From Trypanosoma brucei (lineage: Eukaryota): a stretch of 64,000 bases of DNA. A program made the position numbers and the translations under genes. Positions 8,911 through 47,517 of the stretch are shown here, one piece after another (position 1 is the stretch's first letter; each line of letters begins with the position of its first letter). The stretch is from positions 160,001-224,000 of the forward strand of contig CP000066.1 of NCBI GenBank assembly GCA_000002445.1. Reading direction: 5' to 3'. Under the pieces are notes generated by a model. That model saw only the letters and a program-made list of their open reading frames with translations, made no database searches and was not told the origin of the DNA.

Positions 8911-10662
8911 CTAACTGTTGGAACCTTGGTTGTGCTCCCGGTGCTTCGCTAACAATGCTTTGATAGATGGGGAAACCGCTTGGGACCCGACGGAAGGTCC
9001 TACGCTGGCGAGTGTAGCGGGTGAGTTGCCCTGCGGGTGTGCCTTACCGAGAGAATTGGTATAAGTTTTATTCTCCGACGACTGAAAAGACGAAAGTTTA
9101 TATCGTGTTGAGTTGAGAAGTGTTGCCACCATGCCACCTTCCATTGGTGGGGGTTTGGCAAAATCGACCCCGCTCTTGCGTTGACTACCGGATGATCCAC
9201 AATTGGTAATATCTTTCCCCGGAGTCGCATTGCTTTGAAGTGAAGTGGAGCCGTGCTGCTTCTGCTGAGGATGGAGGCCCAACGTCTTCAACTCCCCGGC
9301 AAAATCGTCTATAAGTCCGTCTAAGTCTAACTCATCATTGTTAGAAGCGGGAGGAGGTTGCGCAACCGTCCTAGAAGGGATTTCTTTGTTATTTGAAGGA
9401 GAAAACTTTCCTGGCTTTGCCTCCGGTGGGAGAGGAGACGTCTTCATATTTGCAAGGGTCGTTTTTACATTTGAACCAAACTTCGGCTGAACGTCGGGTT
9501 TTCGATCGGAGGATTCGTTACTGGGACTGTACGAGTTCTGCTGCGGTACCACCGGTGGACTATTCGATGGACCTCCCGCCTTCGGTACCGCAGTTGTGGC
9601 CCCAACAGGTGGGCGATCCCCTTTTGTATCGGAATTCGGAACAACTGCACCTGACGGGGCGCTTTGCGGTCCGCTAGTGTGTTTCTTCAGTGCCTCTGCC
9701 ATCTGTTTTGGAACATTCGTTGGAGCGAAATTCTCTTCATCAACCCCAACATTAAAGTACGGATGTTGTAAACACTGCTGAGCAGTCGGCCGCCTCTTTG
9801 GGTCGTAATTCAACATTTGCTTCATCAAGTCCATGGCATGCGGTGGTACATGGGGCGGCATGACACGCTCTAAGCCCACACCATTGATGGAAGGAAAATT
9901 GTAACGAATCTTCTTTGCAAGAACCATACCATTGGGCCACACGCTTTCATTGGGTGATCCCAAAACGGCCATTATTTTATGCAGTTGGTCCACCTCGTTG
10001 CTACCCGCAAAGAGCGGGCGGGTGGTTATCATTTCCGCTATTATACAACCCACCGCCCATATGTCTACGGGGGAGCTGTAACATCTGTCTTGCAAAAGTA
10101 ATTCCGGTGCTCGATACCACCGTGTTGAAACATAATCCGTGTAGGGCGGCCGCGCTCGTATTTCCTTAACGAGACCAAAGTCAGCAAGCTTAACTATTTC
10201 CTGTGCGCTAGTGGATGGGTCCTTTCGTACCAGTAAATTTTCCGGTTTCATGTCTCTATGAAAGTACCCAGCGCGGTGTAAATACGCGAGCGACTGCAAA
10301 ATTTGAAATGTATAACTTTTGATTTTGGGGTATGCTAACGCAGGACCACTGGTTCCGGAGCCATAGCTCTGCATCTGTTTGGCTCTCCGAATAACACCCA
10401 GCAAATCCCCATCCATGAATTCAAAAACAAAAAACAATTCATTTTTCTCCCGAATCACCTCCCTCATTTTCACAATGTTGGGGTGGCCGTGCACACGACG
10501 CACAACAACAACCTCCGGGAGTTTCATGCATTCATCCCAGCTGTAATACTTTTGTTTCATTTTTTTAATAGCAACGAACTGACCTGATGACTTGTGCAAT
10601 GCCTTCACTACACACCCGAAGGTTCCATCTCCTAACTGATTGAGAAGTTGGTAGTTCTCCAT
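8911..10662 (-). CDS. CMGC-group Ser/Thr protein kinase (MAPK/CDK/RCK-like) with TDY activation loop and a ~280-aa low-complexity C-terminal extension
   Basis: Glycine loop GDGTFGCV, VAIK, HRDMKPENLL, DFG, activation loop PPYTDYVSTRWYRAPE, CMGC insert region. ATG start verified. C-terminal half is S/P/Q/N-rich. The architecture (ERK/CDK-like domain plus autoregulatory-type tail) resembles what has been described for T. brucei ECK1. That identity is from memory and not verified. Confidence 0.9.
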   Translation of the reverse strand: MENYQLLNQLGDGTFGCVVKALHKSSGQFVAIKKMKQKYYSWDECMKLPEVVVVRRVHGHPNIVKMREVIREKNELFFVFEFMDGDLLGVIRRAKQMQSYGSGTSGPALAYPKIKSYTFQILQSLAYLHRAGYFHRDMKPENLLVRKDPSTSAQEIVKLADFGLVKEIRARPPYTDYVSTRWYRAPELLLQDRCYSSPVDIWAVGCIIAEMITTRPLFAGSNEVDQLHKIMAVLGSPNESVWPNGMVLAKKIRYNFPSINGVGLERVMPPHVPPHAMDLMKQMLNYDPKRRPTAQQCLQHPYFNVGVDEENFAPTNVPKQMAEALKKHTSGPQSAPSGAVVPNSDTKGDRPPVGATTAVPKAGGPSNSPPVVPQQNSYSPSNESSDRKPDVQPKFGSNVKTTLANMKTSPLPPEAKPGKFSPSNNKEIPSRTVAQPPPASNNDELDLDGLIDDFAGELKTLGLHPQQKQHGSTSLQSNATPGKDITNCGSSGSQRKSGVDFAKPPPMEGGMVATLLNSTRYKLSSFQSSENKTYTNSLGKAHPQGNSPATLASVGPSVGSQAVSPSIKALLAKHREHNQGSNS

Positions 10663-11423
10663 GCTATTTATTTATGTGTATGGAAAAGTGAGGTGAGTTA
10701 TTTTTGCTTTTGTTCTTTTTGTTCCTTCCCTACTTCCTTCTCCTCCCTCTCTCTCTTTCTTCTCTTTGTTTTTTTTGTTTCTCTCCCTCACACACTTTCT
10801 ATTATTACTTTTTTCTTCCCCCTTCTTTTCTGGTATTCCTCTCCGTATGTGTATGAATAATATAAAGATATAATTATATCGGCGTTTCAAAAGAATTCCT
10901 TTTGCCACACCTTCTTTTTGGCGTCACGGAATGCTATGAAACACACGGCAAATAATATAATTGGCAACCCCCAGTTAATTTTCGCTCCAAGCGATTGTTT
11001 GAGGGATTCCTTAGAGAAAAAAAAAGAAAAAGGAAAAAAGAAAATAAAAATCAGTGCAGGAATATGTATCAGTTGTAAAAAAAAAGTAGAAAATGCATGA
11101 ACGTCACTATCACACAAAACAATAGGTTCTCAACCATATACATAATTATATATGTATATTTTGTTAGCATTTATATGTTTGTTTATGTTTTGAATTAATT
11201 TTTTTTCCACTATATTCTGTTTGGCTCTAAAAATAAAACATTTCCTCATGAATACGCCACACAGAAAAGATAAGAATTTCACCCAAGTAGAAACAAAGAA
11301 GAGAAGAGAAAAGAGGAAAGAGGAGGAGGGACACACACACACACACACAATCATTCCTATAGATGTACATGCAACCCTGTAGCTTAATAAATGTTTCTGA
11401 AACTAAACACACTTGCACATACG

Positions 11424-14578: not shown

Positions 14579-16778
14579 GTTTGAGGGTATAAATATATAT
14601 ATTATTTTCCTTAAAGAAAAAGAAAAGAAAAATGCAAGTCAGCTGCACCCAACACGGGAGTTTACGCAGAAGCCACAAAAAAAAAATTGTTTGATTCACC
14701 TCCAGAAGAGAAAGGAAGAGAGACAAATAAAATTAAAATAAAGAAGAACTGCAGCGCGCATCCCTCCTATGGGTTTCAAACACATGAAATAACTAATAAA
14801 ATCAACACCCATGACCGCAATTTCCATCCTTTTGAGAATAAATACCGCCATGAGTTGATGTAAAGTCGCATTTGCCCGCCAGATTCAACAGGAAGTCGCA
14901 AAATATTGGGGGAAAAAGGCAAAAAAAAAGAGAAGAAACCTGCGCCAAAAAGTCGCGTCAACATCTTCAACTTTTTTTTTTGACATCATCTTCTCCCACA
15001 TTTCCTCCCTTTCCTTTTGGTTTTTTTTTTTCAGGCACACAAATGCGTGAGGTACGCGGCGTCACCGTGTGAGCGGGAGTAATAAAAATAAAAATAAATT
15101 CATTTCCCTTTAATTTTGACATGCAAATGTAAATAATACCTTCAGTACTGTATGAGAGATATTCCCAGCTACCAATTCATCATGTTCTACCAATACGGTA
15201 GTTGATGATAATTAATATCCATTTCATAAACTAAAGCTTGAAATAATTAAGAGGAGGGCCAAATTCTCCCTTCCTTCCTTCCTTCCTTCCCCACCCTCTT
15301 ATTCTTATTATTCTTCTTCTTCTCATCCTCCTCCCCCTTCTTCATTAATCAAAAAAAAAGAAAAAGGTAGGAAAAAAAGAAGAAAAAAAGAAAAGAAGAA
15401 AAATAAAACCAGAAATGCTGCAGAAGTTATGGTACAAGAAGTGCAAACAAACACAAATTGTATGAAGACAAGGGAGAGAGAGAGAGGGGGGGGGAGGGGG
15501 GTGATAATTAGAAAAAAAAGAGGGGAAGAAGAAGAAGAAAAAAAAAAGCAACAGAAGGAGTGAAATAGGAACACTCATCAGCATGCATTCATCGACATGT
15601 TCTTCAGTACGAACCACCAGGGAAATCTTGCTTTTTTTCTTTTTTTTTTGTGTTCGTGTTCGTGTTCGTGTTTGTGTGTGTTTGTTTTTTTTTTAAATCT
15701 TTTTTTGTTTTTTTTGTCTTCTTTTTCTTGTTGATTATGGTCCCTAAATATATATATGAAAATATATACTAATAATAATAATGATGGTGATAATGATAAT
15801 AATAATAATAGTAACAAAAACAAATATACGACAAAAAGAGGGGGGAAATAAAAAGAAAAGAAAAAAAACATGAAACTGTTCTCCTGCAGGCACACTCACA
15901 TACACAAACACACTAACAAACTTTTTTTATTCTTTTTTTTTTTTTAAAAGTCGTTTCAGTCGTTTCATCCTTTCTCCCTTTTTTTCCCCTTAAAACAAAA
16001 AACAAAAAATTTAACATTGTTTAATTCTTTTTCTTTTTCTTGTGATTTTCTTGTGAATTTGTTTTGTTTTTTTTGTGTGTTTTCCCTCATTTTATATTTT
16101 AAGTAACATTTCATTGAATTTGGAAAAAAAAAAATTCCCTTTTCCCCATCATCTCCGTTTCCTCACCTCTCATTATTATTATTATTATTTTCTTTTTTTT
16201 TTTCCTTCCCTCCCTCCCTCCTTCCCTCCCTTTTTCTTCCTCTTCCTCTTCTTTTTTTTTAAAAAAAATTTCTCTCTTTTGTTTTCATGTTTCGAGGGGC
16301 ATACGTGCCCACACTTTTCTCCTCTTTTTTTTTTCCACTTAACTTTCCTCTCCCATTTTTTTTTCTTTTTTTTTCTTTCCTTTTTTTTTCACTTTTTTCT
16401 CCCTGTACTTTTTTCTTTTCTTCTTTTTTTTTTCTTCTCAAAATCGTATATCTTTGTTGTTGTTGATGAAAGAAGGAGGAAGCATCACACAAAAAACAAA
16501 AAAAAAACAAAAAAATTTCAAGAATGAAAGAGGAAAAAAAAAGTAAAAGTAAAAGTAAAAGTAAAAAAAACAAAGAAAAGAAAGAACAACTTTCGGTGTT
16601 TCTAAAACTGAACTTCCCACAACGACAACCCGCCATTTATTTTTCTCTTTTTTTTTTTTTGCTTCTCTCTTTCTTTCTTTCTTTCTTTCTTTCTTTTCTT
16701 TCTTTCTTTTTTTTCCTTCAAGTGTATTTCTTCCCAAGTCGTACGGAACAGTTGTAAGAGCTCAAAAATAACGTTGCA

Positions 16779-17171
16779 TTATGCCATGGGCGGAACATCA
16801 TGTCCCACCTGTTGCATTTGCGAAGAATCCGGTCCGACAGAAGCCCGTAATTCACCAGGCCCATGCGCAAAAGCACATCTGTCACCCCAACTGCATTCTC
16901 CATTCTTTTCCCAATAAATACACATTTTAGTTTTGCGTTTCCCCTGATCAATACCATTACGACCACCACGGCCACCACGACCGCCACGATTCCCACCAGC
17001 TACCATCACCGGATCATAATATCCGCCAAACGAATAGCCGACAGTTTCTGGTAAATTCCAATGCGTTGTCTTAGTATTATGATCCAAATAATAAGGCTGT
17101 CCATTTGCGGTGTATGCTATTTGCCAACCTGCTGGAAGAAGAGGCGGATTTACTGCAAAATAGCCCTGCAT
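16779..17171 (-). CDS. ZFP3: Small RNA-binding protein with a WW domain, an RGG box and a CCCH zinc finger (ZFP3-like)
   Basis: WW domain LPAGWQIAYTANGQPYYLDHNTKTTHWNLP. RGG repeats GNRGGRGGRGGRNG. C-x8-C-x5-C-x3-H finger CIYWEKNGECSWGDRCAFAH. 130 aa. ATG and stop verified on sequence. The domain order matches the T. brucei ZFP family. The ZFP3 name is from memory. Confidence 0.8.
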   Translation of the reverse strand: MQGYFAVNPPLLPAGWQIAYTANGQPYYLDHNTKTTHWNLPETVGYSFGGYYDPVMVAGGNRGGRGGRGGRNGIDQGKRKTKMCIYWEKNGECSWGDRCAFAHGPGELRASVGPDSSQMQQVGHDVPPMA

Positions 17172-18110
17172 GTCTTATTATTATTATTATTGTTGTTGTT
17201 GTTGTTGTTGTTTTTTGTTTTGTTTTGTTTTTTGTTTTCCTCCGATGTGGTTTTATATATCGTGTGCGTGTGGTGCGTTTTCGTGTATTACAAGTGGCGT
17301 GGCGGGCTCCGTGCTGTTAATGAATAGAACAACAAAAAAAAAAAAGAGAGACAAAACAAACCAAAACAAAAACAAAATGAAAACTAAACAAAAAAATCCC
17401 TAGTGTTTAACACTTTTTCCCTTCACCCTTTATAGCTTATAATTTAGTAGTTAGTTCTTATATTAAAGAGGCGAGAGGAGCTCTAAAAATAAAATAAAAT
17501 GTTAACGGCAGCAGAGCAAAAGACAAAAGAAGAGAGAATAAAATAAAAGAAAAAAAACAGTAAGCGTAGAAATAGCACAAATTTACACATAAATGAGGGA
17601 AAAGGAAAGGAAAGGAAAGGAAATGCAAGAAAGAAAGAAAGAAATCAAAACAACAAAGTAATTTTTTTTAAAAAAAGCAAAGAAAAAAAAAAAAGAAAGG
17701 TCAATGAAAGGAAAAGAGAGGAAAGGAAAGAAATCTACAGGCCGAGTAAAGCAAATCCATAAAAATTACATACATCCACAAGAAGGAATATGTATCACAA
17801 CTTCACTCCCCCCCCTCCCTAAATGCACATGCACACAAACATACACAACTTATGTATACATCAAGTTCAACACTCCAACAAAACCGCTCAATAGACAAAC
17901 ATCTGAGGTTTATTAAACTTCTTAGATATCTTCTTCTTTTTATTTTTTGTTTTTGTTTTTGATGTTGATGTCGCTGTTGATGTTGTTTTCGCTTTCCCCC
18001 TTCATTCACTTACTCAGGCTACCAATACAAACACACACATAACCTCCTCCTCCCTCCCTCCCCTGTAAACATATACGAGCCGCGGATGCGTAACGTACGC
18101 ATCTCATCAA

Positions 18111-19022
18111 TTAAACTTGAAAAGAGTAGATGCCCAGCGCGGGACGTTGGTATCGCATCGTTTCTACAAAAACTAATAAAGGATCTTGCGTTAATGCAGA
18201 TTGCGGCATCGAGAGATCTTTCTTCCCTGGTCTGAGTCGCCGCCTCTTATGTGCATTAATGTCACCAAGCACATAAGGTTTCACCGTACCAACAGTAGCA
18301 TCGAAAAGCAGTTTTTTTTCCATTATTTTATAAGGAACGGGAACCTCCGCCTGTATTGCCTGTTTAGCTTTATCCGCCACTTCCCTCGGATCCTCCTCCA
18401 ATGCTCGCACTACCAAAGGCAAATTTGTCGGCCCTCGTGTTGGCAGTGCAATTTTTGTTGGACGGTAAGCTTTTGAATCATTGGCCCGCCTTCTTGCCAT
18501 TTCCTCCAAAGTATTGAAACGGTGTTCCTCATTTGGATCACGCGGTGGCATCATTCTGGAAGCCACATTATACCGATGCACAGCACCATTTGCATAAGGC
18601 CTCCAACGACTAGAAAGTGTTACTTTTCCTTTACGTCTGCATTGCTCCTGTACTGTGGGTGAAGGAGTATATGGCATTGCACATCGCAAATAAGGACGAT
18701 CTGGGCTACTGGCTTGAGATACGGGTTGTTGTTCCTCCATTCCAACTTGCATTAAAGAATTTACAGGAAGACGTCTCTCGGATTGCGGTTCCTTATCTTT
18801 ACATGACGACTCACAACGAAGAGGTGATGCTTTATTGTACTCATTGTAAGTTGTCGTTGTTGTTGTTGCTGCTGCTGCGCCATAAACAGTAGGAATACAA
18901 CTGCGTTGTGTGGTATTTGTTATGCAATTAATAATAGTGCTTCGTGGGAAAGGAGCCGCATATAAACTGTCCCCTGCACTGCTCGATCTACTGCTCACAC
19001 GTGTTTCCTCTTCCTCTTCCAT
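18111..19022 (-). CDS. Hypothetical protein (303 aa)
   Basis: ATG-initiated (MEEEEETRVSS...). Ordinary composition apart from a poly-T/A run. Array orientation. No recognisable domain. Confidence 0.55.
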   Translation of the reverse strand: MEEEEETRVSSRSSSAGDSLYAAPFPRSTIINCITNTTQRSCIPTVYGAAAATTTTTTYNEYNKASPLRCESSCKDKEPQSERRLPVNSLMQVGMEEQQPVSQASSPDRPYLRCAMPYTPSPTVQEQCRRKGKVTLSSRWRPYANGAVHRYNVASRMMPPRDPNEEHRFNTLEEMARRRANDSKAYRPTKIALPTRGPTNLPLVVRALEEDPREVADKAKQAIQAEVPVPYKIMEKKLLFDATVGTVKPYVLGDINAHKRRRLRPGKKDLSMPQSALTQDPLLVFVETMRYQRPALGIYSFQV

Positions 19023-19068
19023 ATGTATATATATATATATATATATTTATATATTTATATATATATAT
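19021..19068. repeat. (TA)n / (TATATT)n microsatellite
   Basis: atatgtatatatatatatatatatatttatatatttatatatatatat read directly. Confidence 0.9.
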
Positions 19069-20736
19069 GTGGATAAAACTACGTATCGTTCTCTAGTGTT
19101 CTACTACCTTATGCAAGGAGAAGCAGATAAATTAAGCAAAACAAAAGTTTCATTTTTTGATGTTTTTTTTTGGGGGGGGTGAAAAGGAGAAGAAAAACAA
19201 CAAAAAAAAAGAAGGGAAAGGAAATAAAAGAGAAAAAGATCCAATTCTTCTTTTTCTTTTTTTAGGAAAGAGACACACGGGAGCGTGTGTCGCAGGATCA
19301 ATAAATCGGTGCTTTTCGTAGTAGTGAAAAACAGAAAAAGTAAAAGAAGGAAAAAAAAAGTTTTTTTCACTCGAAAGGGTAAAGTGTAAATAACAGAAGA
19401 AAGGGAAACTGTGAATTGGTGCGGAGGAGAGGAAGGTAGTCGCAATAATAAAGAGGATGCCAAAGGGAAATCAATGGTTAACATGGAAAGAAGAAGGAAG
19501 ATCATATGAAAAAGGAAAATACAGGACAAAAACAAACAAACAAACGAACAAAGAAAAATGGTGGAAAGTAGATAACGGAAACAAAAACAACAACAACAAC
19601 ATGGAAATGAGTTAAGCAAACATAACAATAACCCAACAAACGCAAAAGTATAATTATAATGATAATTATATGTCCGCCAACCTTTTGCCTCCTTATCATT
19701 CTTCCTAGAGGCACAGATACGCACACACGCATGCAAATATACATATAAATATTAACTGCCCTCTTTTTCTTACTATTTACCCTCATTTTATCTTTTTGCA
19801 AGCGGAACGATCCGGCAACGGCATATAATTTATTTGGTAGCCGATATTTCTTCCTTTTAACAAAATTCTATTTTGTTTTGTTAGCTTATTATTATTATTA
19901 TTTTCCTTTTCAAGTTTTCCTGCTGCATCTCCTCCCCTCCTCCTCCACCTCTCCATCCTCTGACGTGACTACTTCTGCCCTCCACACCAATTCGTTCTGC
20001 TAATGTTAGGTGATGATTGATTGTTTTTTGTTTTTTTTAAATCTTCTTCTTCCTCCTCCTCCTCCCTCCATCTTTTTCTTTTTTTAAAAAAAAAGTTAAG
20101 TGAAATAAAGAAATGCGCCCGCCTTTACGTGGTGAAATTAATTGAAGGTGGGCAACGCGTCTCCTCTTTCTCATACCAGCTTATAACTCATCATTACCGC
20201 TTGTTTACTTGTTTGCCCCTGACTCTCTCTCTCTCCCTTTCTCTCTCTTTTTTTTTTCCTTTCCCCTCCCCCACCCTTTGGTATTTTGCATGACTTTTTT
20301 TTTTAAAAAAACTTTCTTTGCTTGCTTGTCACATATTTTACTTCACTTTTCTTTTTCTTTTTTTTAATTTGGTGGTGTCTTTTGCGTTTTGCTTTTTTTT
20401 TTTCTTTCTTTCCTCTCTTTTATTTGTAAACCCCTCCCCCTGCTCTCCCCTCTCCTCTCCTCTTTGTTTTCATTTCCCTCCTTTCAATTTATATCTTCTT
20501 CACGTCTCGTCTCTCGAGTGACGGAAGCTTTCATTAAGGCGAAATGTTAAATTTACCTTCACGACACATGCATCAGACGCCCCCCTCCCCTCCCCTCCCC
20601 CACACTTCATTTCATTTTCTTTGCTCTCTCATTTCATTTCATTTTAATTATATTTCCTCTCAGTTCCCTCACACCTGTAGATGCGACTGCGTGCATAGGT
20701 ACATTTATGCATACAAATAAATAAAAATATAAATAT

Positions 20737-20768
20737 ATCATATCATATCATATCATATCATATCATAT
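20737..20768. repeat. (TCATA)6 pentanucleotide repeat
   Basis: atatcatatcatatcatatcatatcatatcatat read directly. Confidence 0.9.
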
Positions 20769-20969
20769 ATACACGACATTTAAATACGAGGATATGAAAA
20801 TTCACCTTTCTCTCCTCCCCACACCCTCCATTCTCCTCTCCTTCTCCCTTCCGGTATGTATTGGGGAGGGGAGAGGAGAGAAAGGTGATATATTTTCCCC
20901 GTCACTAAAAATAAAATAAAATGAAATAAGAAAGCTGCACAAAGCGAATTTACTTTCTTATTCCTACAT

Positions 20970-21710
20970 TCAATGTAACCCAGTTTGTAGAATGGCACAT
21001 GTGAGTTGACGGGCCACATCCTCCGGTGAGGTTTTCAATGGAAGCGCTAATGTCGGTGGCAAGTTATACTCTAAAAACGGTTCCGGTGGCCTGTACTTTG
21101 GTGGTGAGGCTTTCGCAGTTGTCGTGGGAATTTGGTACGGCACACCCACCATAAGATGAGCTTGTGTTTTGCCCTTCGAACTAATTATTTGCCTATTACC
21201 TCCTGGTGTGAGGCCTACCAGTAGCGAAGATGTTGTGGTTGCCGCCCCACCATTCACCTGCACTGTTCCTGTTGTATTGTTGCTCGCTGCTAGAGGTATT
21301 GTTTTCTGGGCATTATGTACGTTGGGATTGAGGATGTAGCCGTAGCCATTTACATCTAAGTGGCGTTCGTCGGGTAACTCATGGAGATATTGGCACTGCG
21401 CCCCGCGGAGACACCCACCATTAACATAATATTTGCATAGTTCTTGCGACCGCTCATGCGTAGAAGCGGTGGTTGGCATTGGTACGGTAGTTGCACCGCC
21501 CATACCATTTGTGCTGCCTGAAAGCAACACTGAAGGTGATCCAGAAGCCAAATAAGGGTAGCTATTAGTACCTGCAGTTGCAGTTGCAGGTGAAGCGCCT
21601 CCAGTAAGTGTGGCAGCACCGCGCCCATTAGGATTTGTGCTACCTGTTTGTGTTCCCCCGCCGGGAGTAAGTACATTGGGACTCCACAAGGCGGTATCCC
21701 GTTGCATCAT
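20970..21710 (-). CDS. CCCH-type zinc-finger protein, low-complexity G/T/A/S-rich
   Basis: Single C-x8-C-x5-C-x3-H finger CKYYVNGGCLRGAQCQYLH. Remainder G/S/T/A/P-rich. Tandem ATG start verified. Confidence 0.7.
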   Translation of the reverse strand: MMQRDTALWSPNVLTPGGGTQTGSTNPNGRGAATLTGGASPATATAGTNSYPYLASGSPSVLLSGSTNGMGGATTVPMPTTASTHERSQELCKYYVNGGCLRGAQCQYLHELPDERHLDVNGYGYILNPNVHNAQKTIPLAASNNTTGTVQVNGGAATTTSSLLVGLTPGGNRQIISSKGKTQAHLMVGVPYQIPTTTAKASPPKYRPPEPFLEYNLPPTLALPLKTSPEDVARQLTCAILQTGLH

Positions 21711-41448: not shown

Positions 41449-41895
41449 TTACTTGGCCATTGGGTTCTGAGAAATGTACTCCACTGCATCGGTAATAGAC
41501 TGAATTTTCTCGGCATCATGATCTGGGATGTCTAAAATAAACTCTTGCTCGATAGCAAAAACAACTTCAACAACGTCCAGTGAGTTCAATCCAAGATCAT
41601 TGACGAAGTGTGACTGCGGTGTTACCTTTGAGGCATCGACTTTCTCAAAGTTTTTGACGACTTCAAGTACACGTGTCAGAACGTCATCTTTGTTTAGGAG
41701 GTACTGCCCAGTTCGACCGGCTTCCTCCCCCGCTGCGTGACCTTCAGAGTGAAACCGAACAGGAAGGTACATCGGAATAGTAACAGCTTGAGTAGCCATA
41801 ACCTTCCATGTCGACACTGCGTGGCACCGGCCACGGAGTAGAGAATAAGCGCCAACCTGTGTGGCAAACTTCCTTGCAAGTTGAGACCGCTGCAT
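41449..41895 (-). CDS. ACP: Mitochondrial acyl carrier protein (ACP)
   Basis: Phosphopantetheine-attachment region DLGLNSLDVVEVVFAIEQEFILDIPDHDAEKIQSITDAVEYI (DLGxDSLDxVE...EFxxxIPDxxAEKI pattern of type II ACPs). Caller start at 41961 is GTG; first ATG at 41895 gives MQRSQLARKFATQ..., a presequence-like N-terminus. Stop verified. Confidence 0.85.
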   Translation of the reverse strand: MQRSQLARKFATQVGAYSLLRGRCHAVSTWKVMATQAVTIPMYLPVRFHSEGHAAGEEAGRTGQYLLNKDDVLTRVLEVVKNFEKVDASKVTPQSHFVNDLGLNSLDVVEVVFAIEQEFILDIPDHDAEKIQSITDAVEYISQNPMAK

Positions 41896-41961
41896 CGTCG
41901 AGCACCTTCTTACAAAAACGATTTTGTAAACAATAAAAAAGCAGGAAAAGTGTAACAACAC

Positions 41962-44900
41962 AGAAGCAATCGCTATAGCAGAGAAAGTTCACTCATCACA
42001 CAACCACGCTGAATGAGGGGATCAATTACAACTTACAAACAAAAGATGGAATCCGAAACGACAGTCGTCAAAATGTCTTGCAACAAACCGTACAGTACGG
42101 TTATCATAGGACTTTCGTTAATGTAGTGGTGTGCAGACATGTTCGAAAACAAAGAAGTAACCGAGTGACAGGTGGACGATAAAACAAAAAGTACTTAACA
42201 TTCATATGTTTAATTTTTCAACGTACTAGACACCCGATCCTCCTTTTCCCTGACACGGAAATACGCCCCACCTCCAACTCCTACGCATAGCCGAGCAACA
42301 CAACTCATTACAATACGAGAACCGAAGATCAGACGTTAACACAACGTATAGGTAAACGCTGCATAAAAATTTAACCTCACAATTGCCTTCCACCATTGGG
42401 AAGATAGGGAAGATGAGAGGGTAAACTTGAGAAAAGAGAGAAAGTTTTCAGAACCATACAGCGAGGAGCACATTTAGAACAAGCTGCAGAAACAGAATTA
42501 TTATCATCAGCACGCGGAACAGTGGCTAGAATTCCCCTTTGTTCATTTCCAAATAAACTGTAATGACAAAAATGAACCACGTATATCACGTTTCCATTAG
42601 AAGTATCACGGTGTTGAATAGTCGACCGCAACACCAAAATAATAACGATATTGATAAGAAGTGTTATAAAATCGAGCAAAGGATAAAAGAACACCCCAAG
42701 TGATTCACTCAGGGACAATTCGCCAAAGCAGCCGCGCTGCAAACCAAAGCCCTTCGCCGGCACCTGATATTCATCCTATCATGTACCACACCTACCCCCA
42801 AAAAGGTAAAGAAGCAAACTCTAGTAAAGAAGCAGGCAGCTATCCACCAAAACAGATTAAAGCCAACCGCGGCAATCAATTCAACGAAGTGACGGCAAAA
42901 ATACCACCCTCAGGTTCCATAATGCGCTCACCCCAAAACCTGATAACACCTCAAATGTAATTTAACAATTGCCACAGCACAACAACAATGCTCTTTCAAC
43001 ATACGTTCCGAAGACTCCTCCCTTCGGTTTCAACTGACAGGCACTGAAGGACATTCACAACTCTGCTTGTGTTGTGCATATTATCGGCGAAAACATAATT
43101 GTTTACATCAACGCTAACAAGAAGAGAATATGAGAACAAAAGTCAGCCAATACAACACGGTTAATAAGAAGAACATAACATGTTATAGCTTCATTACGGC
43201 ATATCCCCTTACTAATCACTACAATAGCAGAGAGCTCGGTAGCTGTGACAGAGTGGAAACGAAAATGAAAAAGAAAATCAATTTGAAAACAAACAAAATT
43301 CCAAAGTGTGCCCCGACGAGGAATCGTATGAAACGCATCCGCCCCATGCTGAGGGGGATATCTCTCTTTGCACGAAAAAAGGTTAATACTGATCCGGTTT
43401 CGGAGAAGGACAACAAGGCATTTGTGTGGCACGTGACAGCAATATGGAAAAAAGAGAACGGATAACATCAAATACAAACGGTGTTCTGTTGTGAGCATTG
43501 ACAGCCCTCTTCAAAAGTTTTTGTTGCAGTGGACGGGCGACCGGTCCGCACATGAAGTGGCAAAACGTTGGAACACGATTACCTGGTCGTGATGCAGTGT
43601 TGTACTTCGTGACGGAACCGCAGCGGCTGGTTGCGCGACGGAAAATCTTCAATCTTGGAGGGAATGCGCCAAATCATTTTGCGTAAGGAACTCCATCCAA
43701 GGATCGCGGACATACAAGAAACCCCACACACCCCAGCTGTCACATGCCCCGCAAAATATTTGGGGAGGTGGAGCACTGTCGGGTCGCAAACTTTCGCATC
43801 GACCGGAGCGACCGCCGCCCGTTCGTTTACTCTTCAAGGAAACCGGAGCAGCATTTGCAGGGAAACGGGGTGATATTCAAACCCCTTTTACCCAGAGCGT
43901 AATAACAAGTTGGGCGGCTCGGGTAAAGCACGGAGGCACACCGATAGAAAAGACACCCTGCGACAAACAGTAGTGCATCAAAGCACAAGAGAATTAAAAT
44001 GTAAAACGGGATCCGAATAGCTCAAGCGAATGGGTTGCCGGCATGGCATGGCCGCCAACAGCTGGGGATACTCGAAATTGGAGACCACGCACCGACGGCT
44101 GCGGTCTCGAAACTTTACCGTCCTGGTGCTTTACGGGCCGTAGCCTCCTTTGGATGATTTCGGAACCACAAAGGAAACAAATTGCCCCAGTGGTCAAAAA
44201 AAAAAAAAGTAGTACTTGACAAGCTGTGGAGCGCACTAGGGGAGCGACGGAGCTTCGCCTTCCCCCCGTATCAAAATGTTTGAAGGGAGGAAGCGGACAG
44301 GAGGGGTACAGGAATCGTAAGAGCCGTATGCCCCAACAGGTAGTAAGTGTTTTTGCAACAGTGTATTACGGAATGGGTTTTAATATAATTGCGGCTGGGG
44401 CGGTTGAATGTATACTCATTTTGCTGAGAGGAAAGCTTCACAGTGAGGTAGGTGTAGGGAGAAGGGCGTGCCAAAGGCAGCTGGTTATTGTAGAGCGCTT
44501 CTGGTAGCGGAGCTGGTTCCAGAGCCTATCTATTGCCAACGCCGCCTCAGGAAACCTGAGGAGTAAATAGCGTCTCCAAAAATGCAAAAAGGGGGAAATG
44601 TTTGCAAAACAGGAATGTGAGATGGCACACCAAGTGCCATGTACGGGGTCCTTCTTTTTTTTTTTTTGGGGGGGGGGGGGCAGCGCTACTTTTCTGAACT
44701 GAAAGATCTACGGACACCGTGTGTGGCAATGTTAGGGTGCGGCGGCTCCCCGGTAAGGTTGACGCTCCCCAAAATGAGAGGCGTGGTTGCTGCTCCAGCT
44801 CCTAACATGGGGAAGAAGGAATTTGACATGTAAATTTCTGACCTACCGCAGTTTGTTGTATGCTTCAGGTGTGGGGAGTTAAGTAAGCACTGGTGCAAAC

Positions 44901-46218
44901 TTGTGCCTTACCGGTGTTGCTGCTGCATCGACGCTAGTAGTGGTAGTGGACTGTGGAGCATTCGAGCAACCGGGTGGGGGGTAGCGGTGGTAGGAGTTTT
45001 GTTTCTTCTGTGGTTCGGACCCGACGGTGTGTCGTTGCCTCGTTCAAATGTGTGGCGGGTTGTGGTTCATAATAGGAATATGCGGGCTGAGTGGGCGGCG
45101 GAACTGGATGCAGCGGTGGCCGCCGCATTGGCCGTGGTGCGTGCAGTTGTGGTAGTTCAGTGGGCTGTGTATCAGATTTGGTGTTTTAGTGGACAGGGTA
45201 TGTTGCGCCAGTGGTACCGGACGGTGGAGGCGTTTTTTTTTTGTCACTCTGCAATTGTTTTGCAGTACAGCTGGAAATGGCACTCTCGCATCTGCGCTTT
45301 TGTATTTTATTTCTGGACTTTTTTTGATGCATCAACTCTGCGCGAAGGGAGGTTTGTGGAATTGCGTTTTTTTGTGTGTGTATTCTTTCTTGCTTGTGCC
45401 ACTGTTTGCTTTATTGGGCTGATATAGAAAATACGAATATACGTAGTGTTGGTCGGTGCCGCATTGACCAACGTTCCTTTGATGATATTATCACTCTGCC
45501 GCTGCCTCCTGAAAGCGTGCTACCATGCAACTGTGCGATTGCTTTTATATTCAAGGGCGGAAAAGGCTTTAATGATAAAACAAATCAGTGATGCTGAGCA
45601 GCGTTGTTTTTAGAAGCGAGATGAAACATGGTGTATATGTGTAAGTGACTATGAGAAGGGAGAAGTTGGTGCGTACCAAATTTTATTATATTACTCTCAC
45701 TTCGACCCGATATATTTTGTCTATTTGTTTAATATATATATATATATAATGCTCTCACAGTTCGATACATTTGTCGCACCTCCTAAATGGTTTCTAAGAG
45801 GCGGTGCTTCCGAGGGGTCAAGGCTGATGTCGATTACCTAGCAGCTGGTGTTATTGATGGTGATTTCTTTGTATGTGTCGAGCACTTACTTAAAGCTGCG
45901 CCTCAGTTATCAACTTCAGTAAATAAATGTTATAAAGCAGTGATCATTTTAAAGGTGCTCCTGTCTTTGGTGGACGAAATTTGTGTGGGTTTTATTTTGG
46001 GAGTTGCAAGTTGGGTATATGTGGTTATTTCGTGTCATATTTTTTTTTTAAAACTTAAGGAATAGTTAGTTTTTTTGTTTCCCTTTCGTCTCGTGGTTTC
46101 GATACGTCGCAGTACATATCTCTACTCCTTTTATCATCTTTTGTTTCTCCTAAGAATTAAGAAAGAACCTTTTTTCACTGCGTGTGTGTTCACATTTCCC
46201 CTCTAAGAAGCACAAGAC
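41962..46218. promoter_or_regulatory. Divergent strand-switch region between the minus-strand and plus-strand gene arrays; expected bidirectional Pol II transcription start zone
   Basis: All supported genes left of 41961 are on the minus strand; all right of 46219 are on the plus strand. The 4.3 kb between them holds no convincing ORF. Strand composition flips: C/A-rich on the + strand around 42.7-43.1 kb, G/T-rich on the + strand around 44.2-45.45 kb. Confidence 0.65.
44655..44680 (+). repeat. T13 G13 homopolymer pair inside the strand-switch region
   Basis: Direct reading: cttc tttttttttttttt gggggggggggggg cagcg at 44651-44685. Confidence 0.9.
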
Positions 46219-47517
46219 ATGCAAACTCCGCTACGTCCAACAATTTTCCCGGAGGGCATAGAAGGGTCTCAGACCGCGGATTCCAGTATAAAGGTAGCAT
46301 GCGGCCGCGATTCAAGCGGTAGAGCAAGCGGATCACCCCCTGATCGTGAGCGCCGGCTTCATCAACGGGAGAAGCAATTGTCTTTTGGGTATGCGACCGA
46401 AGGGTACAACAATATGATTAAGTTGGTGGAGCACGATCCCTTATTAAAAAGTGGTGGAATTATCCCCCTCTCACCCCCTGACGTCAACAAGGGAAGTAAA
46501 AGAGTTTGGGATGTTTCGTTACGGAAGTGGCGTCGGGCGCTGCATATGTTTGATTGCGTATTTATTGAGGGGGAGGATGAAAACAAGAAGACACTTGAGA
46601 GTGTAATAGAAGATCAACGATTGCAGTGGGTGAGTACCGCATATTCCGGCAGGCGGAAAGAAGATCGCGTAAAGGTTTCTGCCAGTACGATCACAAATGC
46701 TCAGAATTCTCCTCACGTTTGCAAGAAGCTGCATGTTGAGGAGTGCCTGAAAGTAATTCTTCGTGAGGAAAGTTGCTATGAACCTGTTGGCAACGTCGTT
46801 CCAGTATCTGCTTCATCATTACTTAAAGGTGCTGATATATCCCCTGCAGATGCAGGCATCAAGATTTTTGTCGCGCCGTCTCCACAGAATCAGTGCAAAC
46901 AAACTCCTGTTCGATCCGGTGCAGTTTGTTCGCGTGTGGCTCCTCGGTGTCTCAATTTTGACTCATCTACGCCTATGCAGAGTAAAGTGCCCCTGAATGG
47001 TGTACAGGAAGTTAAACACCTTCAAAGTTGTGTTCCGCCGCAGCCGAAAGAAAATAAAAACATATGGGTAACGCCAACGATGTGGGTGGACGATGGCGCG
47101 CGCACTTCACCTTTTACATCAATTTACCAACCACCAGTGTTGGAGCAAGTGAGTGAGGTTCAGCAAACTCCTCTAAACTGGAATCTTTTTATTCCTCCTC
47201 AGACATATGTGTGTACGCCCCAACCAGCAACTGCACCGGGAATCGTTTTCGACAAATTTACTCCGAACACTGCTCCGAGGCGGCTTACGATCCTCAGGGA
47301 TAGTAATACAAAGTCACGAGGTGGCGAAGTGGACGTGCTGAAGAGAAATCTTTTCCCTAACAGTGTAATGTCACCATCCCACACTGATTCACTGGAAAAG
47401 GTATTTCACCCCAACACACCGTTAACCCGTTCGTGTGTACGTGGCGAAGTGCCTGAAATAGAAGCAAACAAACCAACGGGTGCTGATTGTGCCCAACAGA
47501 TATTATTCACAGAGTAA
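46219..47517 (+). CDS. Hypothetical protein (432 aa); first gene of the plus-strand array
   Basis: ATG verified at 46219. Preceded by polypyrimidine tracts and AG dinucleotides (46060-46215). No recognised domain. Confidence 0.55.
   Translation: MQTPLRPTIFPEGIEGSQTADSSIKVACGRDSSGRASGSPPDRERRLHQREKQLSFGYATEGYNNMIKLVEHDPLLKSGGIIPLSPPDVNKGSKRVWDVSLRKWRRALHMFDCVFIEGEDENKKTLESVIEDQRLQWVSTAYSGRRKEDRVKVSASTITNAQNSPHVCKKLHVEECLKVILREESCYEPVGNVVPVSASSLLKGADISPADAGIKIFVAPSPQNQCKQTPVRSGAVCSRVAPRCLNFDSSTPMQSKVPLNGVQEVKHLQSCVPPQPKENKNIWVTPTMWVDDGARTSPFTSIYQPPVLEQVSEVQQTPLNWNLFIPPQTYVCTPQPATAPGIVFDKFTPNTAPRRLTILRDSNTKSRGGEVDVLKRNLFPNSVMSPSHTDSLEKVFHPNTPLTRSCVRGEVPEIEANKPTGADCAQQILFTE

What the first reader, a model, noticed from the sequence alone, without database searches (positions are those of the whole stretch)
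41962..46218. Divergent strand-switch region with mirrored GT-rich/CA-rich skew and a T13G13 tract: candidate bidirectional transcription start region
Gene orientation flips here, with minus-strand genes on the left and plus-strand genes on the right. The + strand is C/A-rich around 42.7-43.1 kb, which is GT-rich in the sense of the leftward array. It becomes strongly G/T-rich around 44.2-45.45 kb (for example gtggttcataataggaatatgcgggctgagtgggcggcggaactggatgcagcggtggccgcc...ggtgttttagtggacagggtatgttgcgccagtggtaccggacggtggaggcg). This is GT-rich in the sense of the rightward array. Each diverging array is therefore preceded by GT-rich sequence on its own coding strand.

A T13G13 block (44655-44680) lies between the two arrays. 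GT-rich tracts have been reported to act as Pol II promoter elements and H2A.Z deposition sites in African trypanosomes. G-runs mark divergent strand-switch regions in Leishmania. The region contains no convincing ORF or tRNA.
Basis: partly seen in the sequence, partly recalled or inferred. Interest (0 to 1): 0.55.

Follow-up and report, generated by a model that had tools for sequence, protein, structure and literature searches.

The report
Known trypanosome divergent transcription start region
This is the gap between two back-to-back gene arrays on Trypanosoma brucei chromosome 3, already catalogued as a divergent RNA polymerase II start region, and its GT-rich, G-run-bearing sequence matches the published picture of such promoters, so it is a correct but ordinary finding.

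Summary
The window is T. b. brucei TREU927 chromosome 3, 160,001-224,000. This offset is exact: 9 of 9 published splice-acceptor coordinates fall right after an AG. The region is the divergent strand-switch between Tb927.3.860 (mitochondrial ACP, minus strand) and Tb927.3.870 (SLBP2, plus strand).

- Gene orientation flips here.
- T13G13 is at 44655-44680.
- The cumulative (G+T)-(A+C) skew of the whole 64 kb has its minimum at 44276.

The mirror is lopsided. The right arm, 44655-45427, is truly GT-rich: sense GT 0.657, 3.4 SD above 22 intergenic regions. The left arm is only modestly T-rich.

Kolev et al. 2010 already list both arrays as 'Divergent' Pol II units. They also map two rare processed transcripts inside the gap, Tb3.NT.13 (42053-43113, minus) and Tb3.NT.14 (45428-46090, plus).

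The strand-biased 10-mers of Wedel et al. 2017 split perfectly by strand in the gap, and T13G13 supplies nine of them. No gene, tRNA or Rfam RNA is present.

Five other Trypanosoma species keep the same gene pair and the same V-shaped skew in gaps 3-5 times shorter.

Verdict: interpretation supported; already known.

The parts
41449..41895 (-). First annotated gene of the leftward array: mitochondrial acyl carrier protein (Tb927.3.860). Its major splice acceptor gives a first transcript base at 41908.
   Evidence: PP-binding domain, E 1.5e-10. The exact protein is on T. b. gambiense chr3 and T. equiperdum. Kolev Table S3 gives the ORF at 201895-201449 and the acceptor at 201908. AG plus polypyrimidine tract verified.
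42053..43113 (-). Tb3.NT.13, a published low-abundance trans-spliced and polyadenylated transcript (0.31 RNA/cell).
   Evidence: Kolev 2010 Table S7, chr3 203113->202053. AG and a 74% pyrimidine tract lie directly upstream on the minus strand. Sense GT 0.607. No Pfam hit for its ORFs.
43114..45427 (.). A 2.3-kb zone without mapped processed RNA. It is the inferred bidirectional initiation zone and contains all three skew switch points.
   Evidence: It is bounded by the two outermost published splice acceptors. Minimum of cumulative G-C is at 43222, keto at 44276, T-A at 44633. No tRNA, no Rfam hit at E<=1, no Pfam hit. Its ORFs are broken by indels in sister taxa.
44196..44208 (-). A13 on the plus strand, which is T13 on the leftward coding strand. 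Together with the T13 at 44655 it brackets a 446-bp core (44209-44654, GC 0.50).
   Evidence: (inverted repeats I2/I7). Length polymorphic: A15 in T. b. gambiense.
44655..44680 (+). T13G13 tract on the rightward coding strand. It is the first plus-strand occurrence of the published start-region 10-mers.
   Evidence: It supplies 9 of the Wedel Dataset EV1 10-mers, including GGGGGGGGGG (132 coding vs 17 non-coding in region 1), TTTTTTTTGG, TTTTGGGGGG and GGGGGGGGGC. It is length-polymorphic: T15AG10 in T. b. gambiense and T13G11 in T. equiperdum. T. melophagium has a parallel T19G11 at the orthologous gap.
44655..45427 (+). GT-rich block and candidate directional promoter element for the rightward array. 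Its 3' end (about 45233-45427) doubles as the polypyrimidine tract and AG of the first splice acceptor.
   Evidence: Sense GT 0.657, GC skew +0.30, TA skew +0.33, which is +3.4 SD against 22 intergenic regions. 17 plus-strand and 0 minus-strand Wedel 10-mers. The 174-aa ORF at 44903-45427 is an artefact of A-poor sequence and is broken by a 13-bp indel in T. b. gambiense.
45428..46090 (+). Tb3.NT.14, a published very low-abundance processed transcript (0.09 RNA/cell) and the first processed RNA of the rightward array.
   Evidence: Kolev Table S7, chr3 205428->206090. AG plus polypyrimidine tract. Its 92-aa ORF (45787-46065) has no Pfam hit and carries a 5-bp or 1-bp indel in sister taxa.
46219..47517 (+). 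First annotated gene of the rightward array: SLBP2 (Tb927.3.870). Its major splice acceptor gives a first transcript base at 46155.
   Evidence: SLBP_RNA_bind domain, E 4.5e-18. 100% identical to the TREU927 protein. Acceptor at 206155, verified.

Best explanation
The region is the divergent strand-switch region of T. brucei chromosome 3 between Tb927.3.860 and Tb927.3.870. It acts as a dispersed, two-sided RNA polymerase II transcription start region.

Initiation most likely occurs within 43114-45427. It proceeds leftwards from around the A13/core (about 43.2-44.6 kb) and rightwards from around T13G13 and the GT-rich block (44.65-45.4 kb).

The proposed mechanism is as follows:
- GT-rich sequence and T and G runs on each coding strand favour open, H2A.Z/H2B.V-containing chromatin and directional initiation.
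- The primary transcripts are trans-spliced at the first acceptors, 43113 on the minus strand and 45428 on the plus strand.
- This yields two rare, probably non-coding RNAs (Tb3.NT.13 and Tb3.NT.14) ahead of the first protein-coding mRNAs.

Shown here or in the cited data: the locus identity, the divergent orientation, the published classification as divergent Pol II units, the processed-transcript map, the skew switch, and the strand-partitioned start-region 10-mers.

Inferred: the exact start sites, the chromatin state, and that this particular GT block has promoter activity.
For: Identity: the ACP and SLBP2 proteins match the T. brucei group exactly, and 9 of 9 published splice acceptors fit at offset 160000.

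Published classification: both arrays are listed as 'Divergent' Pol II units.

Processed transcripts: these bound a 2.3-kb zone without mapped processed RNA.

Skew: the minimum for the whole window lies in that zone, with p<0.0005 by shuffling.

Composition: the right arm is +3.4 SD in sense GT against intergenic regions.

Wedel 10-mers: 27 on the plus strand, all at or right of 44660; 8 on the minus strand, all at or left of 44589.

Published experiments: GT-rich synthetic elements drive directional Pol II transcription and H2A.Z deposition.

Comparative: the same ACP(-)|SLBP(+) gap with a V-shaped skew is present in T. cruzi, T. rangeli, T. conorhini, T. theileri and T. melophagium, even though the sequences cannot be aligned.
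Against: No nascent-RNA, 5'-triphosphate or H2A.Z track for this locus could be read here, so exact start sites are not placed.

The left arm is compositionally weak. Its sense GT is 0.55 upstream of the first acceptor, there is no G run on the minus strand inside the gap, and it has only 8 10-mer hits in 2.7 kb.

G runs of 8 or more also occur elsewhere in the window on both strands, for example T9G8 at 19163 on the non-coding strand. In Leishmania such tracts were judged not sufficient for initiation.

In Wedel et al., GT elements reached only about 1/12 of endogenous Pol II levels and depended on genomic context.

The SPARC paper cites sequence-specific promoters (Cordon-Obras 2022), which may be the real determinant.
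Confidence: 0.85

Rival explanations
1. The skew is a passive by-product and not a promoter. It would come from strand asymmetry that builds up along every polycistronic unit, plus the U- and pyrimidine-rich processing signals and UTR-like sequence of the two rare transcripts. Initiation would be set by chromatin factors or by a discrete sequence-specific core promoter somewhere in 43114-45427.
For: A skew of the same sign runs through both arrays: GC skew -0.092 and +0.091 over 42 kb and 18 kb. Ordinary intergenic regions already have sense GT 0.559. The left-arm values lie within or near that range. The T-rich 45233-45427 is the polypyrimidine tract of a mapped acceptor. G tracts are scattered on both strands. 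T13G13 is length-polymorphic among subspecies. Sequence-specific promoters have been reported.
Against: 44655-45427 exceeds every one of the 22 intergenic regions and is G-rich (GC skew +0.30), which polypyrimidine tracts do not explain. The start-region 10-mers partition perfectly by strand. Synthetic GT-rich elements are sufficient for directional transcription. The steep V-shaped skew is kept in six species despite complete sequence turnover.
Confidence: 0.3
2. The region is mainly a DNA replication origin or ORC1/CDC6 binding site, and the skew switch reflects replication. This is not exclusive of transcription initiation.
For: In T. brucei, ORC1/CDC6 sites and origins lie at the boundaries of transcription units, and 19 of 42 early origins centre on divergent strand-switch regions.
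Against: About 80% of ORC1/CDC6 sites are not active origins. No data for this locus were found. The skew tracks the direction of transcription across whole arrays in these organisms.
Confidence: 0.15
3. A real but unannotated gene (protein-coding, tRNA, snoRNA or pseudogene) occupies the gap and explains its unusual length of 4.3 kb.
For: T. b. gambiense carries a called 131-aa gene here, equivalent to window 43103-43498 on the minus strand. Two processed transcripts exist. The gap is 3-5 times longer than in five other Trypanosoma species.
Against: There is no tRNA, no Rfam hit even at E<=1, no Pfam hit for the ten largest ORFs, and no internal repeats. Indels relative to sister taxa fall inside the ORFs at 43103-43498, 43130-43465, 44903-45427 and 45787-46065. 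About 2% of gap columns carry a substitution among the three taxa, against 0.8% pairwise divergence (T. b. gambiense) in the SLBP2 CDS. The NT transcripts are not in Kolev's lists of homologous, peptide-supported or putative non-coding transcripts.
Confidence: 0.05

Closest known systems
Divergent Pol II transcription start regions of T. brucei with GT-rich promoters (Siegel 2009; Kolev 2010; Wedel 2017)
   Same: Divergent gene arrays. The locus itself is listed as two 'Divergent' Pol II units. It has G/T-rich coding strands, G10 and TnGn 10-mers on the coding strand at the 5' edge, and a G-to-C and T-to-A skew switch.
   Different: Nothing categorical. The left arm is a weak example. The gap is long (4.3 kb) and holds two rare processed transcripts. 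Chromatin marks and promoter activity at this locus were not examined here.
Leishmania major divergent strand-switch regions with G-tracts (chr1 73-bp element; Thomas 2009)
   Same: A G tract of at least 10 nt lies within a divergent strand-switch region that initiates transcription in both directions.
   Different: Different genus, and no sequence homology. In Leishmania the tracts were found in only about half of sites and were judged insufficient. Here there is a single G13, fused to T13 and present on one strand only.
Sequence-specific Pol II promoters of T. brucei (Cordon-Obras 2022)
   Same: They are located in strand-switch regions, are orientation-dependent and drive polycistronic units.
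   Different: The paper is not in the library, so its motif could not be scanned. Staneva 2022 could not find similar motifs under most CRD1/RPB1 peaks.
Dispersed, CpG-island-like bidirectional promoters of metazoa with poly(dA:dT) and G-rich nucleosome-disfavouring tracts
   Same: A broad initiation zone, no TATA or Inr-type motif, H2A.Z-flanked, and outward-facing T tracts around a GC-richer core.
   Different: Trypanosome initiation is strand-biased rather than truly bidirectional at each arm. Transcripts are polycistronic and are resolved by trans-splicing.

Membership tests
T. brucei divergent Pol II transcription start region (dTSR) | Two gene arrays diverging from the region | tested here: met
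   ORF orientation. The gene order ACP(-)|SLBP2(+) is conserved in T. b. gambiense, T. equiperdum and five other Trypanosoma species.
T. brucei divergent Pol II transcription start region (dTSR) | Primary (5'-triphosphate) transcripts arising in the region, so that it is catalogued as a Pol II start | tested here: met
   Met by look-up, not by re-analysis. Kolev 2010 Table S14 lists Tb927.3.860->3.600 (-) and Tb927.3.870->3.1030 (+) as 'Divergent'. The coordinate mapping was verified.
T. brucei divergent Pol II transcription start region (dTSR) | Enrichment of H2A.Z/H2B.V, H4K10ac, SPARC and Pol II | not testable with these tools
   No ChIP-seq tracks are available. The supplements of Staneva 2021 and 2022 hold no entry for this locus.
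GT-rich promoter (Wedel 2017) | Strand-biased G/T-rich 10-mers enriched on the coding strand at the 5' end of the start region | tested here: met
   27 plus-strand and 0 minus-strand hits from 44660 to 46218. 0 plus-strand and 8 minus-strand hits from 41896 to 44589. The right arm is strong and the left arm sparse.
GT-rich promoter (Wedel 2017) | GT content on the coding strand above the local background | tested here: inconclusive
   The right arm, 44655-45427, is 0.657 (+3.4 SD against intergenic regions). The left arm upstream of its first acceptor is 0.550 (background), and only the transcribed Tb3.NT.13 reaches 0.607.
GT-rich promoter (Wedel 2017) | Orientation-dependent reporter expression and H2A.Z deposition | not testable with these tools
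   This needs experiment. The fragments Wedel tested came from chr10 and not from this locus.
G-tract strand-switch element (Leishmania type) | A G tract of at least 10 nt on the coding strand near the initiation site, on both arms | tested here: not met
   G13 is on the plus (rightward coding) strand only. There is no C run of 8 or more inside the gap. The nearest is C12 at 40697, inside the left array.
Sequence-specific Pol II core promoter (Cordon-Obras 2022) | The published core promoter motif | not tested
   The paper is not held, so the motif is unavailable.
Replication origin / ORC1-CDC6 site | ORC1/CDC6 binding and an MFA-seq peak | not testable with these tools
   Only the general association with divergent strand-switch regions could be read.

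The most novel reading that the evidence does not exclude
The fused TnGn tract (T13G13 here) may be a discrete, directional boundary or initiator element rather than a random product of GT bias. It would exclude nucleosomes through the dT run and promote R-loops or G-structures through the dG run, and so mark where sense transcription of the rightward array begins.

Three observations point this way:
- It is the first plus-strand start-region 10-mer cluster after the skew switch.
- T-run-to-G-run junction 10-mers are individually strand-biased at the 5' edges of start regions genome-wide.
- An independent T19G11 sits at the equivalent place in the unalignable orthologous gap of T. melophagium.

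A secondary possibility is that the T. brucei-lineage expansion of this gap, with its two promoter-proximal processed RNAs, has a regulatory role.
Probability: 0.12. Interest if true: 0.4.

Novelty: already known. Interest (0 to 1): 0.15.

Why it matters
It matters little beyond confirmation.

The useful additions are:
- a precise anatomy: a 2.3-kb zone without mapped processed RNA, two promoter-proximal rare transcripts, and asymmetric arms;
- the finding that the compositional V-shape is conserved across six Trypanosoma species while the sequence is not. This supports composition, rather than a motif, as the conserved property of these promoters.

Tried and rejected
- Hidden gene: rejected. 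ARAGORN found nothing. Rfam found nothing at gathering score or at E<=1. Pfam found nothing for the ten largest gap ORFs. A three-taxon alignment shows indels falling inside those ORFs. The 174-aa ORF at 44903-45427 is explained by stop-codon depletion in A-poor sequence.
- Repeats or mobile-element remnants as the cause of the 4.3-kb length: only chance-level short repeats and an (AT)n microsatellite were found.
- Primary-sequence conservation with the T. cruzi, T. theileri and T. rangeli gaps: only low-complexity matches.
- Canonical G-quadruplex motifs (four runs of G3 or more): none in the gap.
- An exact look-up of the window's SLBP2 protein returned nothing, although the same sequence is in the protein database as TREU927. 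The T. congolense protein has no contig on record.
- Logan contig L007 and metagenome scaffold L008 carry SLBP homologues from other kinetoplastids, but without the gap context, so they are uninformative.
- Cordon-Obras 2022 and Siegel 2009 are not held. The Staneva 2021 and 2022 supplements have no entry for this locus.
- The sigma-70 promoter/terminator scanner was not used, because it does not apply to trypanosomes.
Full report
**Locus identity**

The ORF left of the region (41449-41895, minus strand) has a phosphopantetheine-binding domain. The ORF to its right (46219-47517, plus strand) has a histone-hairpin-binding SLBP domain.

The ACP protein is encoded with exactly this sequence on T. 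b. gambiense DAL972 chromosome 3 and on a T. equiperdum scaffold. The SLBP protein is 100% identical to a T. b. brucei TREU927 protein, named SLBP2, Tb927.3.870, in the literature.

Kolev et al. 2010 (PMC2936537) give the Tb927.3.860 ORF as Tb927_03_v4 201895-201449. The window is therefore chr3 160,001-224,000. I checked this offset with nine published splice-acceptor coordinates. After subtracting 160,000, all nine fall directly after an AG preceded by a tract that is 66-74% pyrimidine. The AG frequency in the window is 0.057.

**The observation**

Orientation flips as stated. T13G13 is at 44655-44680, and G13 is the longest G/C run in the window. The quoted GT-rich strings are present.

- 44200-45450 has GT 0.608 and GC skew +0.285. 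42700-43100 has plus-strand GT 0.367.
- The two highest 1251-bp windows for sense-strand GT in the whole 64 kb are the two arms of this gap.
- The cumulative (G+T)-(A+C) curve of the entire window has its global minimum at 44276. The G-C curve has its minimum at 43222 and the T-A curve at 44633.
- The V-shape amplitude of the gap is 789, against about 81 for shuffles.

It is less symmetric than described. Twenty-two ordinary intergenic regions of the same window have sense GT 0.559 +/- 0.029. Against these:

- The right arm, 44655-45427, reaches 0.657 (+3.4 SD), with both G>C and T>A.
- The left arm reaches 0.607 only within 42053-43113.
- The left arm is at background (0.550, with G<C) in 43114-44276.

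A weaker skew of the same sign runs through both gene arrays.

**What is inside the region**

- No tRNA was found.
- No Rfam family matched, at gathering score or at E<=1.
- The ten largest ORFs have no Pfam hit.
- There are no meaningful repeats.

I aligned the gap with T. b. gambiense and T. equiperdum. This gave 89 substitutions and nine indels over 4.3 kb. About 2% of gap columns carry a substitution among the three taxa, against 0.8% pairwise divergence (T. b. gambiense) in the SLBP2 CDS. Indels fall inside the ORFs at 44903-45427 (13 bp), at 43103-43498 and 43130-43465 (1 bp), and at 45787-46065 (5 bp or 1 bp). The 131-aa gene called in T. b. gambiense is therefore most likely spurious.

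The gap is not transcript-free, however. Kolev Table S7 lists two low-abundance processed transcripts within it:

- Tb3.NT.13: chr3 203113->202053, minus strand, 0.31 RNA per cell. In window coordinates, 43113..42053.
- Tb3.NT.14: chr3 205428->206090, plus strand, 0.09 RNA per cell. In window coordinates, 45428..46090.

Both begin right after a proper AG and polypyrimidine tract. This has three consequences:

- Part of the T-richness at 45.23-45.42 kb is the splice signal of Tb3.NT.14.
- The zone without mapped processed RNA, where initiation must occur, is 43114-45427.

**Published status**

Kolev Table S14 derives Pol II units from 5'-triphosphate RNA-seq. It lists Tb927.3.860->Tb927.3.600 (-) and Tb927.3.870->Tb927.3.1030 (+), both as 'Divergent'. 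The region is thus an already catalogued divergent start region.

**Test against the GT-rich promoter description**

Wedel et al. 2017 (PMC5579346) report the following:

- Initiation occurs at the 5' ends of H2A.Z domains, with a 4:1 strand bias.
- Synthetic GT-rich elements drive orientation-dependent transcription and H2A.Z deposition. Expression reached only about 1/12 of endogenous levels and depended on genomic context.

Their Dataset EV1 is headed by GGGGGGGGGG, with 132 coding against 17 non-coding occurrences in region 1. It also includes the T-run-to-G-run junction words TTTTTTTTGG, TTTTTTTGGG, TTTTGGGGGG and TTTGGGGGGG, and GGGGGGGGGC.

I scanned all 157 words across the gap. There are 27 plus-strand hits, all at or right of 44660. 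There are 8 minus-strand hits, all at or left of 44589. No hit is on the 'wrong' strand. T13G13 followed by C supplies nine of the hits and is the first plus-strand cluster.

The right arm is therefore a good match to the published element. The left arm is a sparse match. It has no G run on its coding strand inside the gap; the nearest is C12 at 40697, inside the array.

G runs also occur elsewhere on both strands. In Leishmania, G tracts at strand-switch regions were described as common but not sufficient.

**Comparative evidence**

The ACP(-)|SLBP(+) gene pair and its neighbours are syntenic in T. cruzi, T. theileri, T. rangeli, T. melophagium and T. conorhini.

Their gaps are 806-1378 bp, against 4323 bp in T. 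brucei. They cannot be aligned with it beyond low-complexity matches. Each nevertheless shows a significant V-shaped keto skew. Plus-strand GT is 0.34-0.40 left of the minimum and 0.57-0.71 right of it, with 0 of 2000 shuffles reaching the observed amplitude. Outward-facing A and T runs lie around a GC-richer core.

T. melophagium carries T19G11 on the SLBP-side coding strand about 100 nt beyond its skew minimum. T. theileri has T14 followed by a G-rich run on the ACP-side coding strand. T. brucei has A13 (44196-44208) and T13 (44655-44667) facing outwards around a 446-bp core. What is conserved is composition and architecture, not sequence.

**Mechanism**

The best-supported reading is a dispersed, two-sided Pol II start region.

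- Initiation occurs within 43114-45427.
- It is directional on each side because of GT-, T-run- and G-run-rich coding strands that favour H2A.Z-type open chromatin.
- The first trans-splice acceptors, at 43113 (minus) and 45428 (plus), generate rare, probably non-coding RNAs ahead of the ACP and SLBP2 mRNAs.

The locus identity, published classification, transcript map, skew and 10-mer partition are shown. The exact start sites, the chromatin state and the promoter activity of this particular block are inferred.

**Rival explanations**

1. The skew is a passive consequence of transcription-linked strand asymmetry and processing signals, and a discrete promoter or chromatin factor sets initiation. 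This remains possible, mainly for the left arm.
2. The region has a replication-origin role. This is not exclusive of transcription, and it could not be tested here.
3. A hidden gene occupies the gap. This is rejected on present evidence.

**Verdict**

The feature is an already known kind, and this very locus is already catalogued. Interest is low. The only mildly novel thread is whether fused TnGn tracts are discrete directional elements.

Noticed in passing
window 41896-46218, compared with L004 9195-10000, L005 8623-10000, L006 9076-10000, L009 4737-6000 and L010 4894-6000: The T. brucei ACP|SLBP2 gap is 4323 bp. This is 3-5 times longer than the orthologous gaps of five other Trypanosoma species (806-1378 bp). 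It holds two processed low-abundance transcripts. No repeat or mobile-element remnant explains the extra DNA.
   Followed up: partly
L009 5598-5627 (T. melophagium): A T19G11 tract lies on the SLBP-side coding strand about 100 nt after that gap's skew minimum. It parallels T13G13 in T. brucei, although the flanks cannot be aligned. The sister species T. theileri lacks the G run at that place.
   Followed up: partly
window 44196-44208 and 44655-44667: A13 and T13 face outwards (T13 on each coding strand) around a 446-bp core of GC 0.50. Similar outward A/T runs flank the GC-rich cores of the orthologous gaps.
   Followed up: partly
window 15000-21000 (chr3 about 175-181 kb): A low-GC stretch (0.33-0.37) is packed with T and A runs and pyrimidine microsatellites on both strands. 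It has C-rich G4-type motifs on the minus strand at 16208 and 20580, strong negative GC skew (-0.38) at 16-17 kb and 20-21 kb, and many Wedel 10-mer hits on both strands. It probably consists of long UTRs around Tb927.3.720 (ZFP2).
   Followed up: no
window 19163-19179: A second TnGn tract (T9G8) lies on the plus strand, which is the non-coding strand of the leftward array. Such tracts are therefore not restricted to start regions or to coding strands.
   Followed up: no
L001 8398-8793 (T. b. gambiense), equivalent to window 43103-43498 (-): A 131-aa gene is called in the T. b. gambiense annotation inside the strand-switch region. It has no Pfam hit, and T. equiperdum has a 1-bp indel within it. 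It is probably a spurious call.
   Followed up: yes
window 45731-45750: An (AT)n microsatellite inside Tb3.NT.14 is 8 bp shorter in T. b. gambiense. Other homopolymers in the gap (A13, T13G13, T10) also vary in length among the three T. brucei-group genomes.
   Followed up: yes
L008 (metagenome scaffold, ENA ERZ23486787) 10001-11152: An SLBP-domain homologue with 44% identity sits on a 23.7-kb metagenomic scaffold. Same-strand genes lie upstream, so there is no strand switch and no adjacent ACP. It is presumably from a free-living or other kinetoplastid in which this gene is not at an array start.
   Followed up: no
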